Part shown: in pieces, positions 42,796 to 59,355 of the stretch
How the letters are laid out: each line of letters opens with the position of its first letter
Position numbering within the stretch: position 1 is the first letter of the stretch
Assembly (NCBI GenBank): GCA_049968235.1
Contig: JBMFRC010000020.1
Coordinates: 1-59,355 of the forward strand
Source: Candidatus Hydrogenedens sp.
GTDB taxonomy: Bacteria > Hydrogenedentota > Hydrogenedentia > Hydrogenedentales > Hydrogenedentaceae
DNA: 59,355 nucleotides
Direction: 5' to 3'
Made by a program: the position numbers and the translations under genes
The notes under the pieces: model-generated
Databases searched by the model: none
What the model saw: only the letters and a program-made list of their open reading frames with translations
What the model was told of the DNA's origin: nothing

Positions 42796-45264
42796 GTGAA
42801 TAATATGTTTGCCGATGTAATCGTTTTATTACCTATTGATAGTATTTTAACTTACAAAATCCCCGAGAATTTACAATCCAAAATTGCTGTGGGGTCCCGT
42901 GTAATTGTCCCTATCAGGAATGCAATGGAAGTGGGTATCGTTATAAATGTCCATAATAATTATCCTGAAAGTGATATTGCGAAAGAAATCAAAGATATAA
43001 TTGATGCCCCGGATAAAGAAACTGTTATCAATCAAGAGATGATACAGTTATGTAAGTGGATTTCAGATTATTACATTTGTGCTCCGGGCTTATCACTTCA
43101 GATGGCAATTCCCGGTTTTTTACGCTCAACAGGTAAAATTAAATATGCTATTAATACAGACAGGCAATGTAATTATTTACCGGGAAGTCTACCCTATCAG
43201 ATTCTTGAAGTTATAAAGGATAGACCTTTAGACCTGAAAGAATTGAAAAAGAAATTTGGAAATGCGGAGATAGAGAACGAAATACCCCTTTTACTGAAAG
43301 ATGGAATTATCAAAGTTATTATTGAACCGATAAAAATACAAGAAAAAATAAAGAAAGAAATATGGGTACGATTAAGAAAAGATAAAACGGTTACGCAGGA
43401 AGATTTATTACTCTGGCAAAAAAAAGCTCCTCAGCAGGTAAAGACTTATCTTTTCTTACTTCATGAAGGGAAGGAGTATCCACTTTCTGAATTAATTCAG
43501 ATGCAGGAAATTAGCAGGAGTATTGTTTCATCCCTTAAACGGAAAGGATTAATAGAATTCATAGAAAAAAGTGTTCTGCGAATTCCCAGAGTATATCAAT
43601 ATACAGAATCCTTTGAAAACCATCAGCCAATCATTCTGAATGAAGAACAACAATTATGTATAAAATCCATTTCTGACGCGATTCATGAACAGAAGTTCAA
43701 GACTTTTCTGCTTTTCGGTGTAACAGGTTCAGGAAAAACAGAGGTGTATTTACAGGCAATACAGAAGGCAATGGAATGTGGACAACAATCTTTACTCCTT
43801 GTGCCGGAAATTTCTCTCACTCCGCAGACGATTGCCCGATTATATTCACGGTTTAAAGAACAGGTGGCTGTTTTACATAGCGGTTTAAGTGAAGGAGAAA
43901 GATTTGATGAGTGGAGAAGAATAAAAGAAAGGAAAGTAAATGTAGTTGTAGGTGTCCGTTCTGCAATTTTTGCACCTTTTCAACGTTTAGGACTTATTAT
44001 TATAGATGAGGAACACGAACATACCTATAAACAGGGAGAAACTCCACGATACCATGCGAGAGATGTCGCTGTTATGCGTGCTCAGATAAATTCTGCTGTA
44101 TGTGTTTTAGGTTCTGCTACACCCTCCCTTGAATCTTTTATGCATGCATCATCAGCCAAATATCATTTACTTCAATTAACACAGAGAGTTGCATCCGGTT
44201 CGTTACCTTTGATTCATATTGTTGACTTAAGAAAAGAAACGGATAAAACTTCAGGAGAACCTGTGCTTTCAGCATTACTCAGAGAGAAAATAGATGAACG
44301 ATTAAAAAGAAAAGAACAGACCATCTTATTAATTAACCGCCGTGGCTTTTCTCCTATATCCATGTGCCCATCCTGTGGCTGGATAGTATTATGTCCCAAT
44401 TGCCAAACAAGTTTGAATTATCATAGATACGATGGTACAGTGCGTTGCCATTATTGCAATTACAAACAACCTCGACCCGTTCAATGTCTTGAATGTGGTC
44501 AAACCCCATTAGTGCTAATAGGAACAGGTACCCAGCGAATAGAAGATATGTTAATACAGAATTTCCCATCTGCATCAATAGCAAGAATGGATACAGATGT
44601 TACTATATCAAAAAGTAGAGGATATTCTGTTTTAAAAAAATTTGCAGAACATAAAATAGATATTCTTATCGGGACACAGATGATAGCCAAAGGACATGAT
44701 TATCCCCATGTTACTCTGGTTGGGGTATTGAATGCGGATATAGGACTATCCATCCCCAATTTTCGTTCTACTGAATTTGTATTTCAATTGCTTATGCAAG
44801 TAGCAGGACGTTCCGGTAGAAGGGAAAGAACAGGAGAGGTTGTTATCCAGACATTTATGCCCGGACATTATGTTATTAAATCTATCCAGAATCATGATTA
44901 CAAGTTATTTGCGGAATATGAATTGAGAAATCGTAAAACTGTAGGTTATCCACCCTATAATCGCATGATTCAATTCGGATTGGAATCTGAAGATGAAAAA
45001 GAAGTAAGAGATATGGTGTATAATCTTGTGCAATATTCGAAGATGAATTTAAATATACAACAGAATAACTGCCATATATTAGGTCCTGCTCCTGCTATAA
45101 TACGCAAGGTTCAAGGAAAATATCGTTGGCAATTTGCTCTATTAGGAAAAGCCACAAAAACTATTAATGCTATAGCAAGAGATATTAATAACTATTTTTA
45201 TACACAAAAAACAAGTAGTAAAATTTTACTTCGGATTGATGTTGACCCTTATGATATATATTAA
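42796..45264 (+). CDS. priA: primosomal protein N' (replication restart helicase PriA)
   Basis: Walker A GVTGSGKT. DEEH box. Cys-rich zinc-binding insert CPSCGW...CPNC...CHYCNY...CLECG. Confidence 0.9.
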   Translation: MNNMFADVIVLLPIDSILTYKIPENLQSKIAVGSRVIVPIRNAMEVGIVINVHNNYPESDIAKEIKDIIDAPDKETVINQEMIQLCKWISDYYICAPGLSLQMAIPGFLRSTGKIKYAINTDRQCNYLPGSLPYQILEVIKDRPLDLKELKKKFGNAEIENEIPLLLKDGIIKVIIEPIKIQEKIKKEIWVRLRKDKTVTQEDLLLWQKKAPQQVKTYLFLLHEGKEYPLSELIQMQEISRSIVSSLKRKGLIEFIEKSVLRIPRVYQYTESFENHQPIILNEEQQLCIKSISDAIHEQKFKTFLLFGVTGSGKTEVYLQAIQKAMECGQQSLLLVPEISLTPQTIARLYSRFKEQVAVLHSGLSEGERFDEWRRIKERKVNVVVGVRSAIFAPFQRLGLIIIDEEHEHTYKQGETPRYHARDVAVMRAQINSAVCVLGSATPSLESFMHASSAKYHLLQLTQRVASGSLPLIHIVDLRKETDKTSGEPVLSALLREKIDERLKRKEQTILLINRRGFSPISMCPSCGWIVLCPNCQTSLNYHRYDGTVRCHYCNYKQPRPVQCLECGQTPLVLIGTGTQRIEDMLIQNFPSASIARMDTDVTISKSRGYSVLKKFAEHKIDILIGTQMIAKGHDYPHVTLVGVLNADIGLSIPNFRSTEFVFQLLMQVAGRSGRRERTGEVVIQTFMPGHYVIKSIQNHDYKLFAEYELRNRKTVGYPPYNRMIQFGLESEDEKEVRDMVYNLVQYSKMNLNIQQNNCHILGPAPAIIRKVQGKYRWQFALLGKATKTINAIARDINNYFYTQKTSSKILLRIDVDPYDIY

Positions 45265-51776: not shown

Positions 51777-52754
51777 TTATTTATGTTCTTCGTAATATCT
51801 TGTTAAGGCACAACCTGCACAACCGATAACGCCACTGTCTTCACCTAAACCGGCGGGGACAATCTCACATCGTTTTGCTGGCACTTCAAAGGCATTTTTC
51901 ATTACTGTTTCCCGAACAGGGTTAAATAAAACATTACCTGCGGATATCATTCCACCACAAAGAATAACCCGTTCTGGATTTAACATATTAACGATGCTGG
52001 CAATACCCAGACCGAGCCATACTGCTGTTTCATGGAATACTTCCCTGGCAAGTGCGTCGCCTTTTTCGACTGCCTGAAAAATCATCTTACCCGTGATAGT
52101 ATGAATATTGTTATGGCATATTTCTGTCAATATAGTTTTCTTTCCTTTTTCAATTTCTTCCTGTGCAGTGCGGACCATACCCGTTACCGATGCGTACGCT
52201 TCTAAACATCCTTTAGAACCACAACCGCATAATCTACCATCCCTCTGGACCTTCAAATGTCCTAATTCTCCTGCAGTTCCATCAATACCACGCAGCAACT
52301 TCTTAAAAACAACAATACCACCACCTACTCCTGTGCCTAATGTCAGCACCGCGATACAATCACAACCCTGGCCTGCTCCCAGCCAATATTCTCCAAAACA
52401 TGCTGCATTCGCATCATTTTCAATATAACAGGGGACATTTAACCGTTTTCGCATTTCGTCGGCTAAAGGGACATTATGCCAGCCTGGCAAATTCGGTGGG
52501 CTATATACAATTCCCGTTTGCCAATTCATCGGACCCGGTGCACCAATTCCAACGGATAAAATATCTTGAGTCGTTAGACCTTCCTTATCCATTAACTCAT
52601 GCACGACATCAGCCATAGCATCCATAATGGCTTTGGGTCCTTCCTGTGTGGGCGTAGGGACGCTTGTTTTCACAACGATTCTTTTCTCTTCAGATACAAT
52701 AGCAGATTTTATATTTGTTCCGCCCAAATCAACACCAATAATATATTTACTCAC
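51777..52754 (-). CDS. ROK-family glucokinase
   Basis: IIGVDLGGTNIKSAIV. ROK zinc motif CGCGSKGCLEAYAS. Confidence 0.8.
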   Translation of the reverse strand: MSKYIIGVDLGGTNIKSAIVSEEKRIVVKTSVPTPTQEGPKAIMDAMADVVHELMDKEGLTTQDILSVGIGAPGPMNWQTGIVYSPPNLPGWHNVPLADEMRKRLNVPCYIENDANAACFGEYWLGAGQGCDCIAVLTLGTGVGGGIVVFKKLLRGIDGTAGELGHLKVQRDGRLCGCGSKGCLEAYASVTGMVRTAQEEIEKGKKTILTEICHNNIHTITGKMIFQAVEKGDALAREVFHETAVWLGLGIASIVNMLNPERVILCGGMISAGNVLFNPVRETVMKNAFEVPAKRCEIVPAGLGEDSGVIGCAGCALTRYYEEHK

Positions 52755-54216
52755 AGTTTATACCTCCTTTGTTATGTAAATATTCAATGGCTCTGGAAAG
52801 TCGTTCCAGTGTTTTTTCTTTCCCTAACAATTCCATAAGTTCAAAGAAGCCCGGTCCAACCGATTTTCCCGTAAGTGCAAGGCGTGTAGGATTTATCAAT
52901 GCACCTAATTTTATATTAAATTCAGCACAAACTTCATCAAAAACCTGCTTTAACGGGTCATGTTCCCACACAGATACACAGGACAGTTTAGTCTGAACCT
53001 TTTTTAGATAAGTAATTACCGTTTCTGGCGTTTTCCATAATTTTGCTTCCGCTTCCGATTCATAAGTATCAAAATCCTTGAAAAAGAAGTCAGAAAGAAA
53101 CACAATTCGATTTAAAGTTGGCAATTTTTCCTGACAAATTTGAGCCAATTTTGTCAACCATTCCTTACTTTTTGTAGATGTGTTAAACCCATGCTTTTCG
53201 AGGATAGGTATAAGGCGGTCACGAAGGTCTTCAACCGATAAATTGCGAATATGCAAACCATTAAGCCATTCTAATTTTTTCCGGTCAAATCGTGCAGCAG
53301 ACTTGTTAATTCGTTCGATTGAAAAATGTTCAATAAGTTCGGGCAGAGTAAAAAACTCGCGATTTTCCTCCTCCGATGTCCAGCCTAAAAGTGCTACATA
53401 GTTAACAATAGCCTCCGGCACATACCCATCTTCCCGCCAATCTAACACATTCGCACCATGCAATCTCTTACTAAACTTTCGACCTTGCTCATCATGAACC
53501 AGCGGATGATGTGCATAATGGGGGAGCGGAGCATCCAATGCCTTGAAAAGCATAATGTGGCGGGGGGTATTTGTTAAATGGTCATCACCGCGAATGACAT
53601 GCGTTATTTTCATCGTAATATCATCTACAACTACAGCCAGATGAAAAACCGGATCACCATTGGCACGAAGAATGATAAAATCATCATACTGACTGTTCTT
53701 AAAAACAACCGTCCCTTGAATAAGGTCATTTACCACCGTCTCACCTTCCGGCACACGAAAACGAATTACATAAGGGGCATCCCCTTTTTCACGAACCTGT
53801 TCCGGGGTTAAATTCCTGCAAAAACCCGGATAATACAGATTCCCTGTTTCATCTTTATAAGATTCCAAACTTTCCTTTGAACAAAAACACTTATAGGCTT
53901 TCCCCCGTTCCAATAATTGATAAGCCATTTTCCTATAAAGTTCTTTCCGTTGACTTTGACGGTAAGGAGCATAATCCCCTTTCTCAGGCACATCACCAAA
54001 CGGGGGTCCCTCATCCCAATCAATCCCTAACCACTTAAACCCCTCACACATCCCGAAAACATACTGTTCATCTGTTCGCTCCGCATCAGTGTCTTCCAAT
54101 CTTAATATAAATGTTCCCTTATTCTTACGAGCAAAAAGCCAATTATACAATGCAGTCTTAGCAGTACCTATATGCAAAAAGCCTGAAGGCGAAGGTGCTA
54201 TTCGTGTGCGAACCAT
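52747..54216 (-). CDS. gltX: glutamate--tRNA ligase
   Basis: HIGH motif PSPSGFLHIGTAKTA. KMSKS variant KFSKR. Confidence 0.9.
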   Translation of the reverse strand: MVRTRIAPSPSGFLHIGTAKTALYNWLFARKNKGTFILRLEDTDAERTDEQYVFGMCEGFKWLGIDWDEGPPFGDVPEKGDYAPYRQSQRKELYRKMAYQLLERGKAYKCFCSKESLESYKDETGNLYYPGFCRNLTPEQVREKGDAPYVIRFRVPEGETVVNDLIQGTVVFKNSQYDDFIILRANGDPVFHLAVVVDDITMKITHVIRGDDHLTNTPRHIMLFKALDAPLPHYAHHPLVHDEQGRKFSKRLHGANVLDWREDGYVPEAIVNYVALLGWTSEEENREFFTLPELIEHFSIERINKSAARFDRKKLEWLNGLHIRNLSVEDLRDRLIPILEKHGFNTSTKSKEWLTKLAQICQEKLPTLNRIVFLSDFFFKDFDTYESEAEAKLWKTPETVITYLKKVQTKLSCVSVWEHDPLKQVFDEVCAEFNIKLGALINPTRLALTGKSVGPGFFELMELLGKEKTLERLSRAIEYLHNKGGINCE

Positions 54217-54418
54217 AATGTTCCTTACAACAATTCATAATTTAATTTTATGGAATAAAGAGATTTTATAATACCACGAATATCCACATATTTTCACATA
54301 TCAAAAAAACACCCAAAAAAAATCATAACAAACAATCTCTCACCACCTCGCAATCTATACTTAAACAACTATATTATTTATAATCATTAGTCTTATTAGA
54401 TAGTGAATAAAGCAATTT

Positions 54419-54450
54419 AAAAAAAATAAATGCCCCCACTGGGAGGGCAT
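54419..54450 (-). terminator. intrinsic terminator of the tracrRNA
   Basis: Minus-strand RNA AUGCCCUC-CCAGU-GGGGGCAU: 8-bp stem (one G-U), 5-nt loop, followed by UUUAUUUUUUUU. Confidence 0.6.
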
Positions 54451-54492
54451 TGGCTACCTTTTACGGATACCCTTACGCAGCAGAACTCCTTA

Positions 54493-54528
54493 CTATGTTA
54501 AGAGGAGAAATGCTCGCTCTGCTATAAT
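54493..54528. repeat. solitary degenerate CRISPR repeat copy, inverted relative to the array (encodes the tracrRNA anti-repeat)
   Basis: CTATGTTAAGAGGAGAAATGCTCGCTCTGCTATAAT versus the reverse complement of the array repeat, GCTATGTTTTGAGGGAAGTGCTCGCTCTGCTATAAT. The 3' 18 nt and 5' 7 nt are identical; the middle is diverged. Confidence 0.75.
54520..54528 (+). promoter_or_regulatory. putative cas9 promoter: extended -10 TGCTATAAT contributed by the degenerate repeat
   Basis: Perfect TGnTATAAT on the + strand, 116 nt upstream of the cas9 ATG. No recognisable -35. Confidence 0.35.
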
Positions 54529-54536
54529 CTTTTTTA

Positions 54537-54565
54537 ATTATAGCAAAAAAAAATTGAAATGTCAA
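54537..54565 (-). promoter_or_regulatory. tracrRNA promoter (consensus sigma70 with extended -10)
   Basis: On the minus strand: TTGACA (54565..54560), exactly 17 nt spacer, TGCTATAAT (54545..54537). The predicted TSS is about 54530, at the first nucleotides of the anti-repeat. Confidence 0.6.
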
Positions 54566-54643
54566 ATTATATTTGGTAAATTATTTAATATAATTATTGA
54601 CAAATTTTTATTTTTAACCAAACACAAAAAAAGGAGAAAGAGA

Positions 54644-57600
54644 ATGAACAATACAGATAACTTTGATAACTTTAGTCCTTATACATTAGGTCTTGATTTA
54701 GGTTCCAATTCTATCGGTTGGGCACTTATTAAATTAGATGAGAACGATAATCCCTGTGGAATTGAGAAGGTGGGTGTTCGCGTATTTGAGGCGGGTATGG
54801 AAGGTCAGTATGAAAGTGGAAAAGAAGAATCGCGAAATAAAAAAAGAAGGGATGCCCGGTTAGCTCGTCGTCAATATGAACGCCGTGCTCGAAGGTATCG
54901 TAAGTTAGCAAACTTACTTCAGAAGATAGGATTACTTCCGGAGGGCGATATGAATAATAGTTTAGAAAGGCAAGCCATTCTGGATACATTAGATAAGGAA
55001 TTACGTTCCAGATATATTAATCCCAATCTTCCTGAAGAAGAAAAAAATCGACTGAACCAAATATTTATCTATTACCTCCGTTCATTGGCAGTCGAGCAGA
55101 AGTTAGAACCGTTTGCATTAGGACGTATCCTATATCATTTATGTCAGAGACGCGGATTCTTAAGTAATCGTCGTGGACAAAAACAAGATGATGAAGAACG
55201 AGGAAAAGTAAAGGAAGGAATCGCCGAAATTCGACAGGAAATGAGCCGATTAGGTGCAGAAACACTCGGTAGATATTTTGCTAAAATTGACCCTCTTGAA
55301 AAACGAATACGCGGGAGATGGACTGCCCGTGATATGTATGAACAAGAATTCTATACTATCTGGGAACACCAGGCAAAATATTATCCAGAACTACTCAACG
55401 ATACAAATAAAAAACAAATCTTCCGTGCAATATTTTTTCAACGCCCCTTAAAATCGCAAAAAGATAAAATTGGGTTTTGCCAGTTTGAATGTATCAAACT
55501 AGGTGCCCAACGCAACCGTCGCCGGGCTCCATGGTTTATACTCAAAGCACAAAGGTTCAGATTGCTACAAAAAGTGAATGATTTGTTAATTGTAGAAGAT
55601 AAGTTTACAAAAAGACCTCTCACAGATGATGAACGAAAAATAATTATAGACCATCTTGAAAAATATGGAGATGAAACCTTTGCACAATTGCGCAAACTGT
55701 TGGGTTTGAAAAAGACAGTAAAATTCAATCTGGAAGAAGGTGGAGAAAAGAAAATTCGTGGAAATAGAACCGCAGGTGCTATTCGTGAAGTTATCGGTGA
55801 ACTATGGGACAACATGCCGGATGCGGAGCGGGATAAACTTGTTGAAGATATATATTCCATTGTCAGTAATAAAGCATTAAAGAAACGATTAATAAACCAT
55901 TGGAAATTCACAGAAGAACAAGCAGAAAAATTATCGGAAATAAGCATTGAAGATGGTTACTGCAATCTATCCCGTCAGGCAATTGATAAATTCCTGCCTG
56001 GACTGGAATCGGGAAAACACTATTCTACATTAGTCAAAGAAATTTATGGGATAGATGACATTAATATCATAGTTAACCTGTTACCCCCCTTAGAATCCGC
56101 CCCTATTGGCGAAATTCGGAATCCAACCGTAACACGAACATTGGCGGAAATGAGAAAAATCGTTAACGAACTTGTAAAACGATATGGCAAGCCAAAGTTT
56201 ATTCATATTGAAACTGCACGAGATTTAAGGAATACAAAAAAAGAACGAGAGAAGATTTGGAAAAATAACAGATATTTGGAAGAAGTTCGTGAAAAAATAA
56301 AAAAAGACCTGATAAGTAAAGGTATCTCCAATCCAACAAATGATGATGTTGAACGATATATGTTAGCAGATGAGTGTGGTTGGGTTTGTCCTTATACAGG
56401 TCGTTCTATTAGTTTTAATGCCTTATTTGTCGAATCTCAATTCGATATAGAACATATAATTCCGCTCAGCCGCTGTCTCGATAATTCATTCAAGAATAAA
56501 ACATTGTGTTATCACGAGGAAAATAGGAATAGAAAGCATAATCAAACGCCGTTTGAAGCCTATGGCTCAAATGAAACACAATGGAATGAAATTTTAAGAA
56601 GGGTCGAAAATTTTAGTTCGATATACGCAGTAGAAAAATTAAAACGATTTAAAATGCACGGGGAAGATTTAGACGAATTCATCGATAAGTTTTCTGCATC
56701 TCAATTAAATGACACGCGCTACGCTTCGAGAGAAGCAAGAATATACTGTGCTTTGCTATACGGAAAAGAATATCGAAAACATGTATTCACCGTATCTGGT
56801 TCAACAACAGCAGTCATACGGCGTATGTGGGATTTGAATAAGATATTAGGTAGTGCGGAAAAAAATAGAGAAGACCATCGACAGCATGCTATCGACGCTA
56901 TCGTAATTGCCCTGACTTCACCTGCAATGATAAAGAGCATTTCCCAACAGGCAGAAAAAATCCCGAAAGATACCCCCAAACGATACCGCTGGTGGAGACA
57001 TATTAAACCGCCATGGGATACTATCTTTAACGAAGCCCATGAAAAAGTGCTGAATATTATTGTCTCACACCGTCCCGAACGAAAAGTGAGCGGTAGACTT
57101 CATGAGGAAACAAATTACAGTCCACCCAAACCCGGTGATAAAGAAGGAGAAACCGTTGTTCATGTAAGAAAATCTTTAAGTAATATTTCTAAGGGTGAGA
57201 TAGAAGAAATTGTTGACCCGGTTGTTAGGGAAACAGTAAAAAAGAAATTAGAAGAATTGGGGGGAGACCCGAAAAAAGCCTTTGCTGACCCCGCGAATTA
57301 TCCATTAATGCCCAATAAGAAAGGACTTCATATACCTATACGCCATGTGCGTATTCGTAAAAAAATGAATGTTTTCCCCATAGGCAAAAATGAACGAATT
57401 CGTTATGTCGCCACAGATGAAAATCACCATGTGGAAATTTTTGAGACAAAAGATAAAAAAGGAAAAACCATCTGGGATGCTAATGTGGTCAGCATGTTCG
57501 AAGCAATGCAACGAAAGAAAGAGGGCAAAGAAATTATCCAGCGAAAACTTATCCGCGATGGGAAAGTTGTCGAAGATGCAAAATTCCTCTTTAGCCTCTG

Positions 57601-57844
57601 CAAAGGAGATGTGGTTTACATGAAAGAATTGTATGATGAAAACAAATATGAATACTTTAAATTAATAAAAATGGATATAAACTGTGTATTTATGTTTCTT
57701 CCAATTTACATGGCAAAAATACCACAAAAAAATGGTAAGAAGGATTTTACAGGATTAACAAGAAAACCAAGTTCTCTTTTAACTTCTGATGCAAAGAAAT
57801 GTTCTATCAATGTTTTAGGAGAAGTGCAAATAGCACATGACTGA
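54644..57844 (+). CDS. cas9: Cas9, type II-C (1066 aa)
   Basis: RuvC-I LGLDLGSNSIGWAL (Asp18). Arg-rich bridge helix RRDARLARRQYERRARRYRKL. RuvC-II IHIETARD (Glu523). HNH FDIEHIIP...N (His604, codon 56453..56455). RuvC-III HHAIDAIVIA (His748/Asp751). The ATG at 54644 lies 7 nt after AAGGAG. The ORF-track start at 54554 adds a spurious 30-aa extension. Confidence 0.9.
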   Translation: MNNTDNFDNFSPYTLGLDLGSNSIGWALIKLDENDNPCGIEKVGVRVFEAGMEGQYESGKEESRNKKRRDARLARRQYERRARRYRKLANLLQKIGLLPEGDMNNSLERQAILDTLDKELRSRYINPNLPEEEKNRLNQIFIYYLRSLAVEQKLEPFALGRILYHLCQRRGFLSNRRGQKQDDEERGKVKEGIAEIRQEMSRLGAETLGRYFAKIDPLEKRIRGRWTARDMYEQEFYTIWEHQAKYYPELLNDTNKKQIFRAIFFQRPLKSQKDKIGFCQFECIKLGAQRNRRRAPWFILKAQRFRLLQKVNDLLIVEDKFTKRPLTDDERKIIIDHLEKYGDETFAQLRKLLGLKKTVKFNLEEGGEKKIRGNRTAGAIREVIGELWDNMPDAERDKLVEDIYSIVSNKALKKRLINHWKFTEEQAEKLSEISIEDGYCNLSRQAIDKFLPGLESGKHYSTLVKEIYGIDDINIIVNLLPPLESAPIGEIRNPTVTRTLAEMRKIVNELVKRYGKPKFIHIETARDLRNTKKEREKIWKNNRYLEEVREKIKKDLISKGISNPTNDDVERYMLADECGWVCPYTGRSISFNALFVESQFDIEHIIPLSRCLDNSFKNKTLCYHEENRNRKHNQTPFEAYGSNETQWNEILRRVENFSSIYAVEKLKRFKMHGEDLDEFIDKFSASQLNDTRYASREARIYCALLYGKEYRKHVFTVSGSTTAVIRRMWDLNKILGSAEKNREDHRQHAIDAIVIALTSPAMIKSISQQAEKIPKDTPKRYRWWRHIKPPWDTIFNEAHEKVLNIIVSHRPERKVSGRLHEETNYSPPKPGDKEGETVVHVRKSLSNISKGEIEEIVDPVVRETVKKKLEELGGDPKKAFADPANYPLMPNKKGLHIPIRHVRIRKKMNVFPIGKNERIRYVATDENHHVEIFETKDKKGKTIWDANVVSMFEAMQRKKEGKEIIQRKLIRDGKVVEDAKFLFSLCKGDVVYMKELYDENKYEYFKLIKMDINCVFMFLPIYMAKIPQKNGKKDFTGLTRKPSSLLTSDAKKCSINVLGEVQIAHD

Positions 57845-58730
57845 ACATATTATAGACCTGTCCGAAGAAGGTGGACGGCTGAATATCGATTTAGAACGAT
57901 TAGCAATAACACAAGGGGAGAAGGAATTTTTTATTCCCTTAGCAGAAGTATCTGTGGTAATTGTTTCACATCCGGCTGTAACTTTAACACAACCCGTATT
58001 GTCCGGCTTAATGAAGTATGGAGCCGTATTTATTACCTGTGATGAAAAACGAATGCCCATCGGTATGATGTATCCATTAGTGGGACATCATCTACAAATG
58101 GAAAAATTAAAATATCAGATAGAAGCCTCTTTACCTATACGCAAACGAGCATGGCAACAGATTATTAAATCAAAAATTCAAGCACAGGGAAACTTATTAT
58201 TAGAATTACACGGAGACGATAAAGGTCTAATTCCATTAGCAGAACGCGTGCAGTCCGGTGACCCGGATAATGTGGAAGGACTGGCAAGCAGGAAGTATTG
58301 GAATTTTTTATTCCCAGCCGAATTTGAGTTCCATCGAAATCCAGAAGCAGGGGGAATTAATGCCCTGCTGAATTATGGATATGCTATTCTACGCGGGATT
58401 ACAGCAAGAGCCATCGTTAGTGCAGGGCTAAATCCAAGTATCGGCATTCATCATCACAACCGATATAATCCGTTTTGCCTCGCTGATGATTTAATGGAAC
58501 CCTATCGACCCATTGTAGATTTTGCTGTGGTGAAGTTTATGCGGGGAAAAGATGCCTTTGTTGAACTAAATAAAGAAGCAAAACAATTTCTGATACAAAA
58601 TTTGATGAAAAAATATAAAATGAATGATGAAGAACGAAACTTGTTCGATATTACTTTTAGAACCGCTGTATCCCTTGCTCAGATGTTTGAGGGAAAAAGA
58701 AAAACATTAATACTCCCTGAAATTGTATAA
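57837..58730 (+). CDS. cas1: Cas1 (type II)
   Basis: Motifs CDEKRMP, LNYGYAIL, DLMEPYRP are shared with type II Cas1. An 8-nt overlap with the cas9 stop indicates translational coupling. Confidence 0.9.
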   Translation: MTEHIIDLSEEGGRLNIDLERLAITQGEKEFFIPLAEVSVVIVSHPAVTLTQPVLSGLMKYGAVFITCDEKRMPIGMMYPLVGHHLQMEKLKYQIEASLPIRKRAWQQIIKSKIQAQGNLLLELHGDDKGLIPLAERVQSGDPDNVEGLASRKYWNFLFPAEFEFHRNPEAGGINALLNYGYAILRGITARAIVSAGLNPSIGIHHHNRYNPFCLADDLMEPYRPIVDFAVVKFMRGKDAFVELNKEAKQFLIQNLMKKYKMNDEERNLFDITFRTAVSLAQMFEGKRKTLILPEIV

Positions 58731-58849
58731 ATATAATCCATGGCTAAAAAAGCCACGAACTTGCAAATTAAGAACAAATTAAACCATGAAAAGCCATGAG
58801 CAAGAAAAAAGATAAAAATAAAAAACCTCAAATATCAGGATATAAATCT

Positions 58850-59155
58850 ATGTGGATGATCGCTATGTTCGATTTACCTGTGGAAACAAATGAAGACCGA
58901 AAACATGCTACGCAGTTTCGAAATTTGCTATTAAGAGAAGGATACTCCATGTTGCAGTTTTCCGTTTATGGCAGATATTTCCCAAGCGAAGAAGCAAGTG
59001 AACCCTATAAAAAAAGAATTCGTCAAAGTATTCCACCACGAGGAGAAGTCCGACTCCTCTATATTACTGATAAACAGTTCGAGAAAATGGAAATCTTCGT
59101 GTCAAAAAAGAAACGAAAAGCAGAAGAACCTACCCCACAATTACTACTTTTTTAA
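58850..59155 (+). CDS. cas2: Cas2
   Basis: MWMIAMFDLPV...RNLLLREGYSMLQFSVY matches the Cas2 core (MLVLVTYDV-type start). The ATG at 58850 lies after AGGA. The ORF-track start at 58796 adds a Lys-rich 18 aa without an SD. Confidence 0.8.
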   Translation: MWMIAMFDLPVETNEDRKHATQFRNLLLREGYSMLQFSVYGRYFPSEEASEPYKKRIRQSIPPRGEVRLLYITDKQFEKMEIFVSKKKRKAEEPTPQLLLF

Positions 59156-59175
59156 TAAAAAATCCTCCCTTTTTA

Positions 59176-59190
59176 ACTATGTTTGAGGGA
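59176..59190. repeat. partial degenerate inverted repeat fragment between cas2 and the array
   Basis: CTATGTTTGAGGGAT matches the first 16 nt of the reverse-complement repeat (CTATGTTTTGAGGGAA) with one T deletion and one substitution. Confidence 0.4.
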
Positions 59191-59204
59191 TTTATAAATT
59201 TTAG

Positions 59205-59355
59205 ATTATAGCAGAGCGAGCACTTCCCTCAAAACATAGCTTATCCATTAGCAACTCTCTAACGGTTACCATTATAGCAGAGCGAGCACTTCCCTCAAAA
59301 CATAGCAGACTCGAATTGACATTGACACCACCGACAATTATAGCAGAGCGAGCAC
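59205..59355. CRISPR. CRISPR array, 36-bp repeat ATTATAGCAGAGCGAGCACTTCCCTCAAAACATAGC, 30-bp spacers; truncated by the window end; probably transcribed on the minus strand
   Basis: Identical repeats at 59205..59240 and 59271..59306, and a partial one at 59337..59355. Spacers at 59241..59270 and 59307..59336. The minus-strand form of each repeat ends in TGCTATAAT. Confidence 0.9.

What the first reader, a model, noticed from the sequence alone, without database searches (positions are those of the whole stretch)
54493..54545. Back-to-back inverted TGCTATAAT boxes: one degenerate repeat serves as tracrRNA anti-repeat and may also drive cas9
At 54520..54545 the sequence TGCTATAAT-cttttttta-ATTATAGCA is an inverted pair of extended -10 boxes. 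The minus-strand box, with TTGACA 17 bp upstream, drives the tracrRNA. The + strand box is the 3' end of the degenerate inverted repeat, points at cas9 (ATG 116 nt away) and has no -35. The two promoters face each other with their transcription start sites a few nt apart, so tracrRNA and cas9 transcription could interfere or be co-regulated. The arrangement looks like an ancient repeat-spacer unit that was captured upstream of cas9 and repurposed.
Basis: seen in the sequence. Interest (0 to 1): 0.6.

Follow-up and report, generated by a model that had tools for sequence, protein, structure and literature searches.

The report
tracrRNA promoter facing a repeat-derived box
The inverted pair of promoter boxes is real, but it is mostly an unavoidable side effect of how this CRISPR-Cas9 locus makes its tracrRNA, and cas9 has a better-conserved promoter of its own just downstream.

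Summary

The minus box, with TTGACA 17 bp upstream, is the tracrRNA promoter. In 11 related loci it stays TGnTATAAT with n free, and the -35 is invariant.

The + box is the complement of the first 9 nt of the anti-repeat. It mirrors the extended -10 that ends every CRISPR repeat, as in the Neisseria-type repeat-embedded crRNA promoters.

The inverted pair follows from geometry. The tracrRNA starts at the first base of the anti-repeat, so its -10 must sit 6-9 nt from the mirrored repeat -10. Loci with about 45-48% Cas9 identity show the same layout with different hexamers.

Whether the + box drives cas9 is unresolved and less likely here. All 11 close loci keep a canonical + strand promoter (TTGAnn-17-TAnAnT, 54554-54582). 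One relative lost the TG of the + box while keeping base pairing. However, in five of six mid-distance loci the mirrored box is the best + strand candidate.

The parts
54420..54530 (-). tracrRNA gene, about 111 nt: anti-repeat, invariant CAUAGUAAGG nexus-like motif, two small stems, terminator.
   Evidence: The promoter and terminator bracket it. It forms a -56 kcal/mol duplex with the repeat, with a 2x2 internal loop and a 1-nt bulge. The consensus fold has 25 pairs, 9 of them with compensatory changes across 10 loci. There is no Rfam family hit, only chance-level matches.
54492..54528 (-). Anti-repeat. On the minus strand it reads ATTATAGCAGAGCGAGCATTTCTCCTCTTAACATAGT.
   Evidence: It forms inverted repeats with the array repeats: the first 18 nt match perfectly and 22-24 nt match at 95-96%.
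54520..54528 (+). + strand TGCTATAAT box. It is the complement of anti-repeat nt 1-9 and a mirror of the extended -10 at the 3' end of every repeat. It has no -35.
   Evidence: It is TGCTATAAT in 10 of 11 close loci and TACTATAAT in L001. It scores 8.2 bits, against a median best score of 9.4 in shuffled sequence.
54529..54536 (.). 8-nt spacer between the boxes. It contains both predicted transcription starts: minus about 54530/54529, plus about 54535.
   Evidence: The spacer sequence is free and its length is 8-9 nt in the close relatives. The start positions are inferred from the usual 7-nt distance between -10 and start.
54537..54545 (-). Extended -10 (TGCTATAAT) of the tracrRNA promoter.
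   Evidence: The TATAAT hexamer is invariant. TG is kept in 10 of 11 loci (L011 has GG). The n position varies C/T/G/A.
54560..54565 (-). -35 TTGACA of the tracrRNA promoter, with a 17-bp spacer.
   Evidence: It is a 12/12 consensus match, invariant in all close loci, and the promoter scores 19.1 bits.
54546..54559 (+). A-tract (54546-54553, UP-element-like) plus the -35 TTGAAA (54554-54559) of the candidate cas9 promoter. This -35 abuts the tracrRNA -35.
   Evidence: TTGA is invariant and positions 5-6 vary (AA/CA/TA/CT) in 11 loci. The A-tract is conserved.
54574..54582 (+). -10 of the candidate cas9 promoter (TGgTAAATT). The predicted start is about 54588-54590.
   Evidence: The spacer is exactly 17 bp in all 11 loci. 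The hexamer is TAAATT, TAAAAT, TACATT, TAGATT, TAAACT or AATAAT, so positions 2, 4 and 6 are kept and positions 3 and 5 are free. It scores 14.4 bits, close to the 99th percentile of shuffle maxima (14.5).
54592..54603 (+). Conserved AATTATTGACAA element in the cas9 5' leader. Its function is unknown.
   Evidence: It is nearly invariant in 11 loci. No -10 partner lies at 16-18 bp.
54632..57844 (+). Shine-Dalgarno AGGAG (54632-54636) and cas9 (ATG 54644, 1066 aa).
   Evidence: TIGR01865, E = 6e-224. Homologues start at the same ATG.
57837..59155 (+). cas1 (57837-58730) and cas2 (58796-59155).
   Evidence: TIGR03639 cas1_NMENI and TIGR01573 cas2.
59205..59355 (-). CRISPR array, cut by the window end. 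Repeats are 36 nt and spacers 30 nt. The crRNA strand is minus. Each repeat ends in TGCTATAAT and has TTGAGG 16 bp upstream.
   Evidence: The repeat-embedded promoter scores 15.0 bits.

Best explanation
The segment is the 5' end of a type II-C tracrRNA gene together with its promoter. The minus-strand TGCTATAAT, with TTGACA 17 bp upstream, is a near-perfect sigma-70-type extended -10 promoter. It starts the tracrRNA at the first base or two of the anti-repeat. The + strand TGCTATAAT is simply the other strand of the anti-repeat's first 9 nt. These nucleotides must pair with the 3' end of the CRISPR repeat, and in this lineage that repeat end carries the extended -10 of a repeat-embedded crRNA promoter of the Neisseria or Campylobacter type. 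A tracrRNA that starts at its anti-repeat therefore places its own -10 about 6-9 nt from a mirrored repeat -10, and this produces the inverted pair. In this clade cas9 is most likely transcribed mainly from a separate conserved promoter: an A-tract, TTGAAA at 54554-54559, a 17-bp spacer and TGgTAAATT at 54574-54582. Its -35 abuts the tracrRNA -35. The mirrored box is at most a weak auxiliary promoter, and it is sterically outcompeted by the consensus tracrRNA promoter. What is shown: the sequence anatomy, the complementarity and the conservation patterns. What is inferred: all transcription starts, all promoter activity and the competition.
For: The locus is type II-C: cas9, cas1_NMENI and cas2 with no fourth gene. 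The array repeats end in TGCTATAAT on the crRNA strand. The anti-repeat matches the repeat perfectly over 18 nt, and the full duplex is -56 kcal/mol with the usual internal loop. The tracrRNA fold has 9 pairs with compensatory changes. The tracrRNA promoter is a 12/12 match plus TG. In relatives its n position varies while TATAAT, TG and TTGACA are kept. The geometry is conserved with other hexamers: TATACT-8-ACTATA in L017, TATACT-7-AATATA in L021, TATACT-7-ATTATA in L022, TATACT-6-ATTATA in L027, and TATAGT-7-AGTATA in L028. Repeat and anti-repeat covary in this region, with CAGG in L018 against CATG in L021. The candidate cas9 promoter is present at a fixed 17-bp spacing in 11 of 11 close loci and varies in the way a real promoter does. 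It scores 14.4 bits against 8.2 for the + box. L001 lost the TG of the + box through a change that keeps a G:U pair, while its repeats keep TGC. In E. coli, strengthening one -35 at overlapping divergent promoters strongly reduces transcription in the other direction (PMC12825309). Repeat-embedded promoters in type II-C systems are established (PMC5965381; PMC12477760).
Against: There are no transcript data for this organism, so every start site is predicted. A perfect TGnTATAAT can work without a -35, and the same box is presumed to fire in every repeat. My scoring of extended -10 sites is ad hoc and may undervalue the + box. In 5 of 6 mid-distance loci the mirrored box, with TTGnnn at 16-17 bp, is the best + strand candidate and no canonical alternative is visible. 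Across the 17 loci with this layout the key -10 positions (-12, -11, -7) of the mirrored box never change, although A-to-G changes in the tracrRNA would still keep wobble pairing. The -10 of the proposed cas9 promoter (TAAATT) matches the consensus at only 4 of 6 positions. Promoter rules for this phylum are assumed from E. coli.
Confidence: 0.6

Rival explanations
1. The repeat-derived extended -10 inside the anti-repeat (54520-54528, + strand) is a genuine and significant cas9 promoter. Because it overlaps the tracrRNA promoter, the two compete, and this couples tracrRNA and cas9 output.
For: The box is a perfect TGnTATAAT. The identical box ends every repeat, where by analogy with Neisseria it drives crRNAs. 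It is conserved in 10 of 11 close loci. The homologous site is the top-scoring + strand candidate in L021, L022, L026, L027 and L028, and in L021, L026 and L028 the upstream gene is divergent, so the promoter must lie in this short region. The -12, -11 and -7 positions are unchanged in 17 loci.
Against: Conservation of the box cannot be separated from the pairing constraint, because the neighbouring anti-repeat bases are equally invariant. L001 lost the TG. There is no -35 in this clade, and the 8.2-bit score is ordinary for this AT-rich region. A 19-bit consensus promoter occupies the same DNA on the other strand. Experiments on overlapping promoters predict that the stronger one wins. A separate conserved promoter lies downstream. 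L015 and L016 have the tracrRNA in the other orientation.
Confidence: 0.28
2. The 9-8-9 palindrome acts as a unit, either as an operator for a dimeric regulator or as an RNA or DNA hairpin.
For: The symmetry is a perfect 9/9 in the window. A neighbouring near-palindrome, TTGAAATGTCAA, also exists.
Against: The arms do not covary. The third base of the minus arm varies freely while the + arm stays TGC, and the spacer varies in sequence and length. Each arm fits TGnTATAAT independently. No predicted transcript contains both arms, because both starts lie between them. In the mid-distance loci the two hexamers are not complementary (TATACT against TATAGT or TATATT).
Confidence: 0.03
3. The + box and the 54554-54582 promoter work as tandem promoters that both contribute substantially. 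Their balance would depend on how much RNA polymerase occupies the tracrRNA promoter.
For: Both sites are conserved in the clade. Both are sigma-70-like.
Against: The arguments are the same as against the first rival. Nothing in the sequence requires two promoters.
Confidence: 0.09

Closest known systems
Neisseria meningitidis and Campylobacter jejuni type II-C CRISPR-Cas with repeat-embedded crRNA promoters (Zhang et al. 2013; Dugar et al. 2013; reviewed in PMC5965381)
   Same: The locus has cas9-cas1-cas2 and an array with 36-nt repeats and 30-nt spacers. The crRNA strand runs opposite to the cas genes. Every repeat ends in an extended -10 (TGCTATAAT here; TGCTACAAT in Neisseria, recalled from my own knowledge). 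cas1 matches the NMENI-type model.
   Different: Here the tracrRNA lies upstream of cas9 and diverges from it, so the mirrored repeat promoter points at cas9. Transcription from the repeats has not been shown for this organism. I could not retrieve the Neisseria tracrRNA sequence to compare its mirrored box.
Streptococcus pyogenes-type layout: tracrRNA upstream of cas9 on the opposite strand, with tracr-L autoregulation of the cas promoter (cited in PMC12477760 and PMC5965381)
   Same: The tracrRNA is divergent from cas9 and shares one short control region with it.
   Different: That system is type II-A, with a leader promoter rather than repeat promoters. Here I found only one tracrRNA promoter, no long form and no guide-like 5' extension, because the RNA starts at the anti-repeat.
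Bacterial bidirectional promoters with RNA polymerase competition (Warman et al.; PMC12825309)
   Same: Two oppositely oriented promoters share the same DNA, so only one polymerase can bind at a time. A strong -35 on one side suppresses the other.
   Different: Those promoters share one pseudo-symmetric -10, with starts typically 18, 10 or 23 bp apart. Here there are two separate full hexamers 8 bp apart, with predicted starts about 5 bp apart, and one hexamer is a by-product of an RNA-pairing constraint.
Stand-alone repeat-like elements in CRISPR-cas loci (Shmakov et al. 2023, bioRxiv 10.1101/2023.03.03.530964)
   Same: A degenerate repeat copy lies outside the array, next to the cas genes.
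   Different: Here the copy is plainly the tracrRNA anti-repeat. It has a full tracrRNA scaffold and terminator and is not a cr-like regulatory RNA.

Membership tests
Type II-C CRISPR-Cas locus | Cas9 together with Cas1 and Cas2, and no csn2 or cas4. | tested here: met
   TIGR01865 (747 bits), TIGR03639 cas1_NMENI and TIGR01573 cas2. The genes are contiguous from 54644 to 59155 with no fourth ORF, and the upstream neighbour is gltX.
tracrRNA | An anti-repeat complementary to the CRISPR repeat, lying outside the array. | tested here: met
   An 18-nt perfect match and a 36/37-nt duplex of -56 kcal/mol with an internal loop.
tracrRNA | An own promoter, a Rho-independent terminator and a conserved 3' scaffold. 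| tested here: met
   A 12/12 promoter and a terminator at 54451-54429 followed by a T-run. The consensus fold has 9 compensatory pairs. Expression itself is not testable here. No Rfam model matched.
Repeat-embedded crRNA promoters (Neisseria type) | An extended -10 at the 3' end of every repeat, oriented into the spacer. | tested here: met
   TGCTATAAT ends each repeat on the minus strand in the window and in L001-L004, L011 and L025. TTGAGG lies 16 bp upstream, and the site scores 15.0 bits.
Repeat-embedded crRNA promoters (Neisseria type) | Primary (5'-triphosphate) crRNA 5' ends inside the spacers. | not testable with these tools
   This needs dRNA-seq or an equivalent method on this organism.
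Extended -10 promoter (the + box as a cas9 promoter) | A TGnTATAAT sequence on the correct strand upstream of the gene. | tested here: met
   54520-54528, 116 nt from the ATG.
Extended -10 promoter (the + box as a cas9 promoter) | Conservation beyond what the overlapping anti-repeat constraint explains. | tested here: inconclusive
   The box is kept in 10 of 11 loci, but the flanking anti-repeat bases are equally invariant. L001 lost the TG through a change that preserves pairing. The -12, -11 and -7 positions are never changed in 17 loci, but the sample is small and the loci are not independent.
Extended -10 promoter (the + box as a cas9 promoter) | A mapped transcription start about 7 nt downstream of the hexamer. 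| not testable with these tools
   No transcript data are available.
Bidirectional promoter (Warman et al.) | A single shared pseudo-symmetric -10, with divergent starts about 18, 10 or 23 bp apart. | tested here: not met
   There are two separate hexamers 8 bp apart, with predicted starts about 5 bp apart. The site may behave similarly through steric competition, but it is not a member of this class.
tracr-L-type Cas9 autoregulation | A second upstream tracrRNA promoter that gives a long form with a guide-like 5' part matching the cas promoter. | tested here: not met
   The next-best minus-strand sites score 8.1 bits or less and are not conserved. The tracrRNA starts at its anti-repeat.

The most novel reading that the evidence does not exclude
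In this type II-C lineage the promoter that CRISPR repeats carry for crRNA synthesis is also used, as its mirrored copy inside the tracrRNA anti-repeat, as the ancestral promoter of the cas9 operon. One 36-nt element would then be an RNA-pairing module on one strand and a promoter on the other. Because this promoter and the tracrRNA promoter occupy the same DNA, mutually exclusive polymerase binding would set the Cas9-to-tracrRNA ratio. The Hydrogenedens clade would have added a second canonical promoter later.
Probability: 0.2. Interest if true: 0.55.

Novelty: new member of a known kind. Interest (0 to 1): 0.3.

Why it matters
The finding shows that a striking palindrome of two perfect promoter boxes can arise with no palindrome function. 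It follows from two separate constraints. The tracrRNA starts at its anti-repeat, and the repeat 3' end carries a promoter. For CRISPR biology it adds an uncultivated-phylum example of the Neisseria-type repeat-promoter architecture, combined with a divergent tracrRNA-cas9 control region. It also raises a testable question: is the mirrored repeat promoter in the anti-repeat silent, or does it feed cas9 expression? In more distant relatives it is the best visible candidate. If it is active, it would be a compact way to couple Cas9 and tracrRNA levels. If it is silent, it illustrates how a consensus promoter can mask a cryptic one that pairing constraints will not let evolution remove.

Tried and rejected
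- **Rfam:** a search of 54200-54700 gave only chance-level matches (SIB_RNA and ctRNA_pGA1, E about 0.4), so there is no curated family for this tracrRNA.
- **Minus box as a relic of a second repeat:** rejected. The 27 nt upstream share 5 of 27 bases with the repeat.
- **Palindrome as an operator or hairpin:** rejected, because the arms do not covary and no predicted transcript spans both.
- **TTG at 54554 as the cas9 start** (the longest ORF): rejected. Homologues start at the ATG at 54644, which has an AGGAG.
- **TTGACA at 54597-54602 as a -35:** no -10 lies at 16-18 bp in any locus. The element remains unexplained.
- **A long tracrRNA form from an upstream minus-strand promoter:** the only candidate is weak and not conserved (TTGGTT-17-AATAAT, 7.9 bits).
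- **Literature:** Zhang et al. 2013 could not be read. A search for the Neisseria tracrRNA sequence found nothing, so I could not check from a source whether Neisseria keeps the mirrored box. Searches found no report of an anti-repeat-embedded cas9 promoter.
- **TGCTATAAT at 45093:** it lies inside a coding ORF and is a chance match.

Full report
**What is in the sequence.** The + strand reads TGCTATAAT (54520-54528), ctttttta (54529-54536), ATTATAGCA (54537-54545). The 9-mer occurs six times in the window against 0.86 expected. Three copies are CRISPR repeats at the window end, two are the pair in question, and one (45093) lies inside an 822-aa ORF. The spacer is 8 nt, not 9. The cas9 ATG is at 54644, behind AGGAG at 54632-54636.

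**Context.** The interval 54217-54643 is the divergent intergenic region between gltX (minus strand, 52747-54216) and cas9 (54644-57844, 1066 aa, TIGR01865). cas1 (NMENI type) and cas2 follow, with no fourth cas gene, so this is a type II-C locus.
- A CRISPR array starts at 59205, with 36-nt repeats and 30-nt spacers.
- Read on the minus strand, each repeat is GCTATGTTTTGAGGGAAGTGCTCGCTCTGCTATAAT.
- It therefore ends in a perfect extended -10 and has TTGAGG 16 bp upstream. This scores 15.0 bits in my sigma-70 scoring.
- This is the architecture known from Neisseria meningitidis and Campylobacter jejuni, where crRNAs start from promoters inside the repeats (PMC5965381; PMC12477760).
- The closest Cas9 proteins come from Candidatus Hydrogenedens and Hydrogenedentota metagenome bins.

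**The tracrRNA.**
- The minus strand from about 54530 to 54420 carries a 37-nt anti-repeat (54528-54492). Its first 18 nt are identical to the + strand reading of the repeat.
- The predicted repeat:anti-repeat duplex is -56 kcal/mol, with a 2x2 internal loop and a one-base bulge.
- Downstream come an invariant CAUAGUAAGG motif, two small stems and a terminator (54451-54429 plus a T-run).
- Ten homologous RNAs share a consensus fold of 25 pairs, 9 of which show compensatory changes.
- Rfam has no model that matches.

**The minus box is the tracrRNA promoter.** TTGACA (54565-54560), a 17-bp spacer and TGCTATAAT give a 12/12 match plus TG, scoring 19.1 bits. I compared 11 distinct close loci with 73-83% Cas9 identity: the window, L001-L004, L006, L008, L009, L011, L019 and L023.
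- TATAAT and TTGACA are invariant.
- The spacer is always 17 bp.
- TG is kept in 10 of 11 loci (L011 has GG).
- The base between TG and TATAAT is C, T, G or A.

This is the signature of an extended -10 and not of a palindrome arm. The usual 7-nt distance puts the start at 54530/54529, one or two bases before the anti-repeat (inference).

**The + box is the other strand of the anti-repeat.** It mirrors the promoter that ends every repeat because the anti-repeat pairs with the repeat over its full length. The pair of inverted boxes then follows from geometry. If the tracrRNA starts at its anti-repeat, its -10 must lie about 7 nt from the mirrored repeat -10. Loci with only about 45-48% Cas9 identity and the same divergent layout bear this out, with different hexamers:

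| Locus | + hexamer | gap (nt) | minus hexamer read on + strand |
|---|---|---|---|
| L017 | TATACT | 8 | ACTATA |
| L021 | TATACT | 7 | AATATA |
| L022 | TATACT | 7 | ATTATA |
| L027 | TATACT | 6 | ATTATA |
| L028 | TATAGT | 7 | AGTATA |

L014 (29% identity) has the same layout with decayed hexamers. The repeat and anti-repeat covary in this segment: CAGG in L018 against CATG in L021, in both elements. Pairing there is therefore under selection. The 27 nt upstream of the minus box show no similarity to the repeat (5/27), so nothing supports a captured repeat-spacer unit beyond the accepted repeat origin of anti-repeats.

**Does the + box drive cas9?**

Evidence against, in this clade:
- All 11 close loci carry a + strand promoter directly after the tracrRNA promoter. 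It consists of a conserved A-tract (54546-54553), a -35 TTGAnn (54554-54559), exactly 17 bp, and a -10 TAAATT, TAAAAT, TACATT, TAGATT, TAAACT or AATAAT (54577-54582).
- Its variation is what a real promoter shows. TTGA is invariant while positions 5-6 of the -35 vary. In the -10, positions 2, 4 and 6 are fixed and positions 3 and 5 are free.
- It scores 14.4 bits, close to the 99th percentile of shuffle maxima (14.5). The + box scores 8.2 bits, below the median best score of shuffles, 9.4.
- L001 has TACTATAAT in the anti-repeat complement while all 20 of its repeats keep TGCTATAAT. That change preserves a G:U pair but removes the TG on which a promoter without a -35 depends.
- The + box shares its DNA with a consensus promoter on the other strand. 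In E. coli, improving one -35 at overlapping divergent promoters strongly reduces transcription the other way (PMC12825309).
- In L015 (67% Cas9 identity) and L016 (62%) the tracrRNA lies on the same strand as cas9, so the layout is not obligatory.

Evidence in favour:
- A perfect TGnTATAAT can act without a -35 (established knowledge), and the same box presumably fires in each repeat.
- In five of six mid-distance loci (L021, L022, L026, L027, L028) the mirrored box, there accompanied by TTGnnn at 16-17 bp, is the top-scoring + strand site upstream of cas9. The next candidates fall far behind in L026, L027 and L028: 13.0 against 4.6, 9.9 against 7.3 and 9.9 against 3.3 bits.
- In L021, L026 and L028 the upstream gene is divergent, so the cas9 promoter must lie in that short region.
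- The three critical -10 positions of the mirrored box never change in the 17 loci with this layout. The differences from the locus's own repeat that I saw are at -14 (L001, L026) and -8 (L028).

This sample is small and phylogenetically dependent. My treatment of extended -10 sites in the score is ad hoc.

**Verdict.** The tracrRNA promoter assignment is strong. The claim that the anti-repeat copy drives cas9 is neither required nor excluded. I put it at roughly 0.3 for a substantial role in this genome. I favour the conserved 54554-54582 promoter as the main cas9 promoter, with the mirrored box largely occluded. The locus is a new member of a known kind, a Neisseria-type II-C system in Hydrogenedentota. 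The only potentially new idea is the dual use of a repeat-derived promoter, which needs 5'-end mapping or reporter assays.

**Literature.** Searches found no description of an anti-repeat-embedded cas9 promoter.

Noticed in passing
window 59160-59204: Between the cas2 stop and the first repeat lies an inverted partial repeat. The + strand reads ACTATGTTTGAGGGA, which is the first 16 nt of the crRNA-sense repeat minus one T. It is conserved in L001-L004, L011 and L025. On the minus strand, just downstream of the last repeat's promoter box, it reads AUCCCUCAAACAUAGUUAAAAAGGGAGGAUUUUUU. That is a hairpin plus a U-run, so it is probably the terminator for array transcripts, and it resembles a second, truncated anti-repeat.
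   Followed up: partly
window 54592-54603: AATTATTGACAA is nearly invariant in 11 loci. It lies just downstream of the predicted cas9 promoter start and has no -10 partner at 16-18 bp. It could be an operator or a leader element. Its function is unknown.
   Followed up: partly
window 54554-54565: The cas9-direction -35 and the tracrRNA -35 abut each other. Together they form a 12-bp palindrome, TTGACATGTCAA, which is perfect in L001, L004, L009 and L023 and off by one base in the window (TTGAAATGTCAA). The variation fits two -35 hexamers better than a protein-binding site.
   Followed up: partly
L015 1-210 and 3396-3600; L016 1-111: In these Cas9 relatives (67% and 62% identity) the tracrRNA is on the same strand as cas9. 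In L015 no T-run follows the last hairpin, so read-through into cas9 is possible. L015 also has the array directly after cas9, in inverted orientation, and has no cas1 or cas2.
   Followed up: partly
L003 2690-2840: The 3' part of the tracrRNA gene, the terminator hairpin and preceding stem, is duplicated in tandem.
   Followed up: no
L012 485-530: This L002-like locus has a 16-nt deletion inside the anti-repeat that leaves both promoter boxes intact, plus a short duplication in the tracrRNA 3' part. It may be a decaying locus or an assembly variant.
   Followed up: no
L019 4597-5043; L022 7309-7680; L027 7069-7518: Small extra genes are inserted between cas1 and cas2 in some relatives: PDDEXK_3 in L019 and L022, and a 23S_rRNA_IVP family gene in L027.
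   Followed up: no
L022 1-2500: A type I-E cas1-cas2 pair and its array lie immediately upstream of the type II-C tracrRNA-cas9 module.
   Followed up: no
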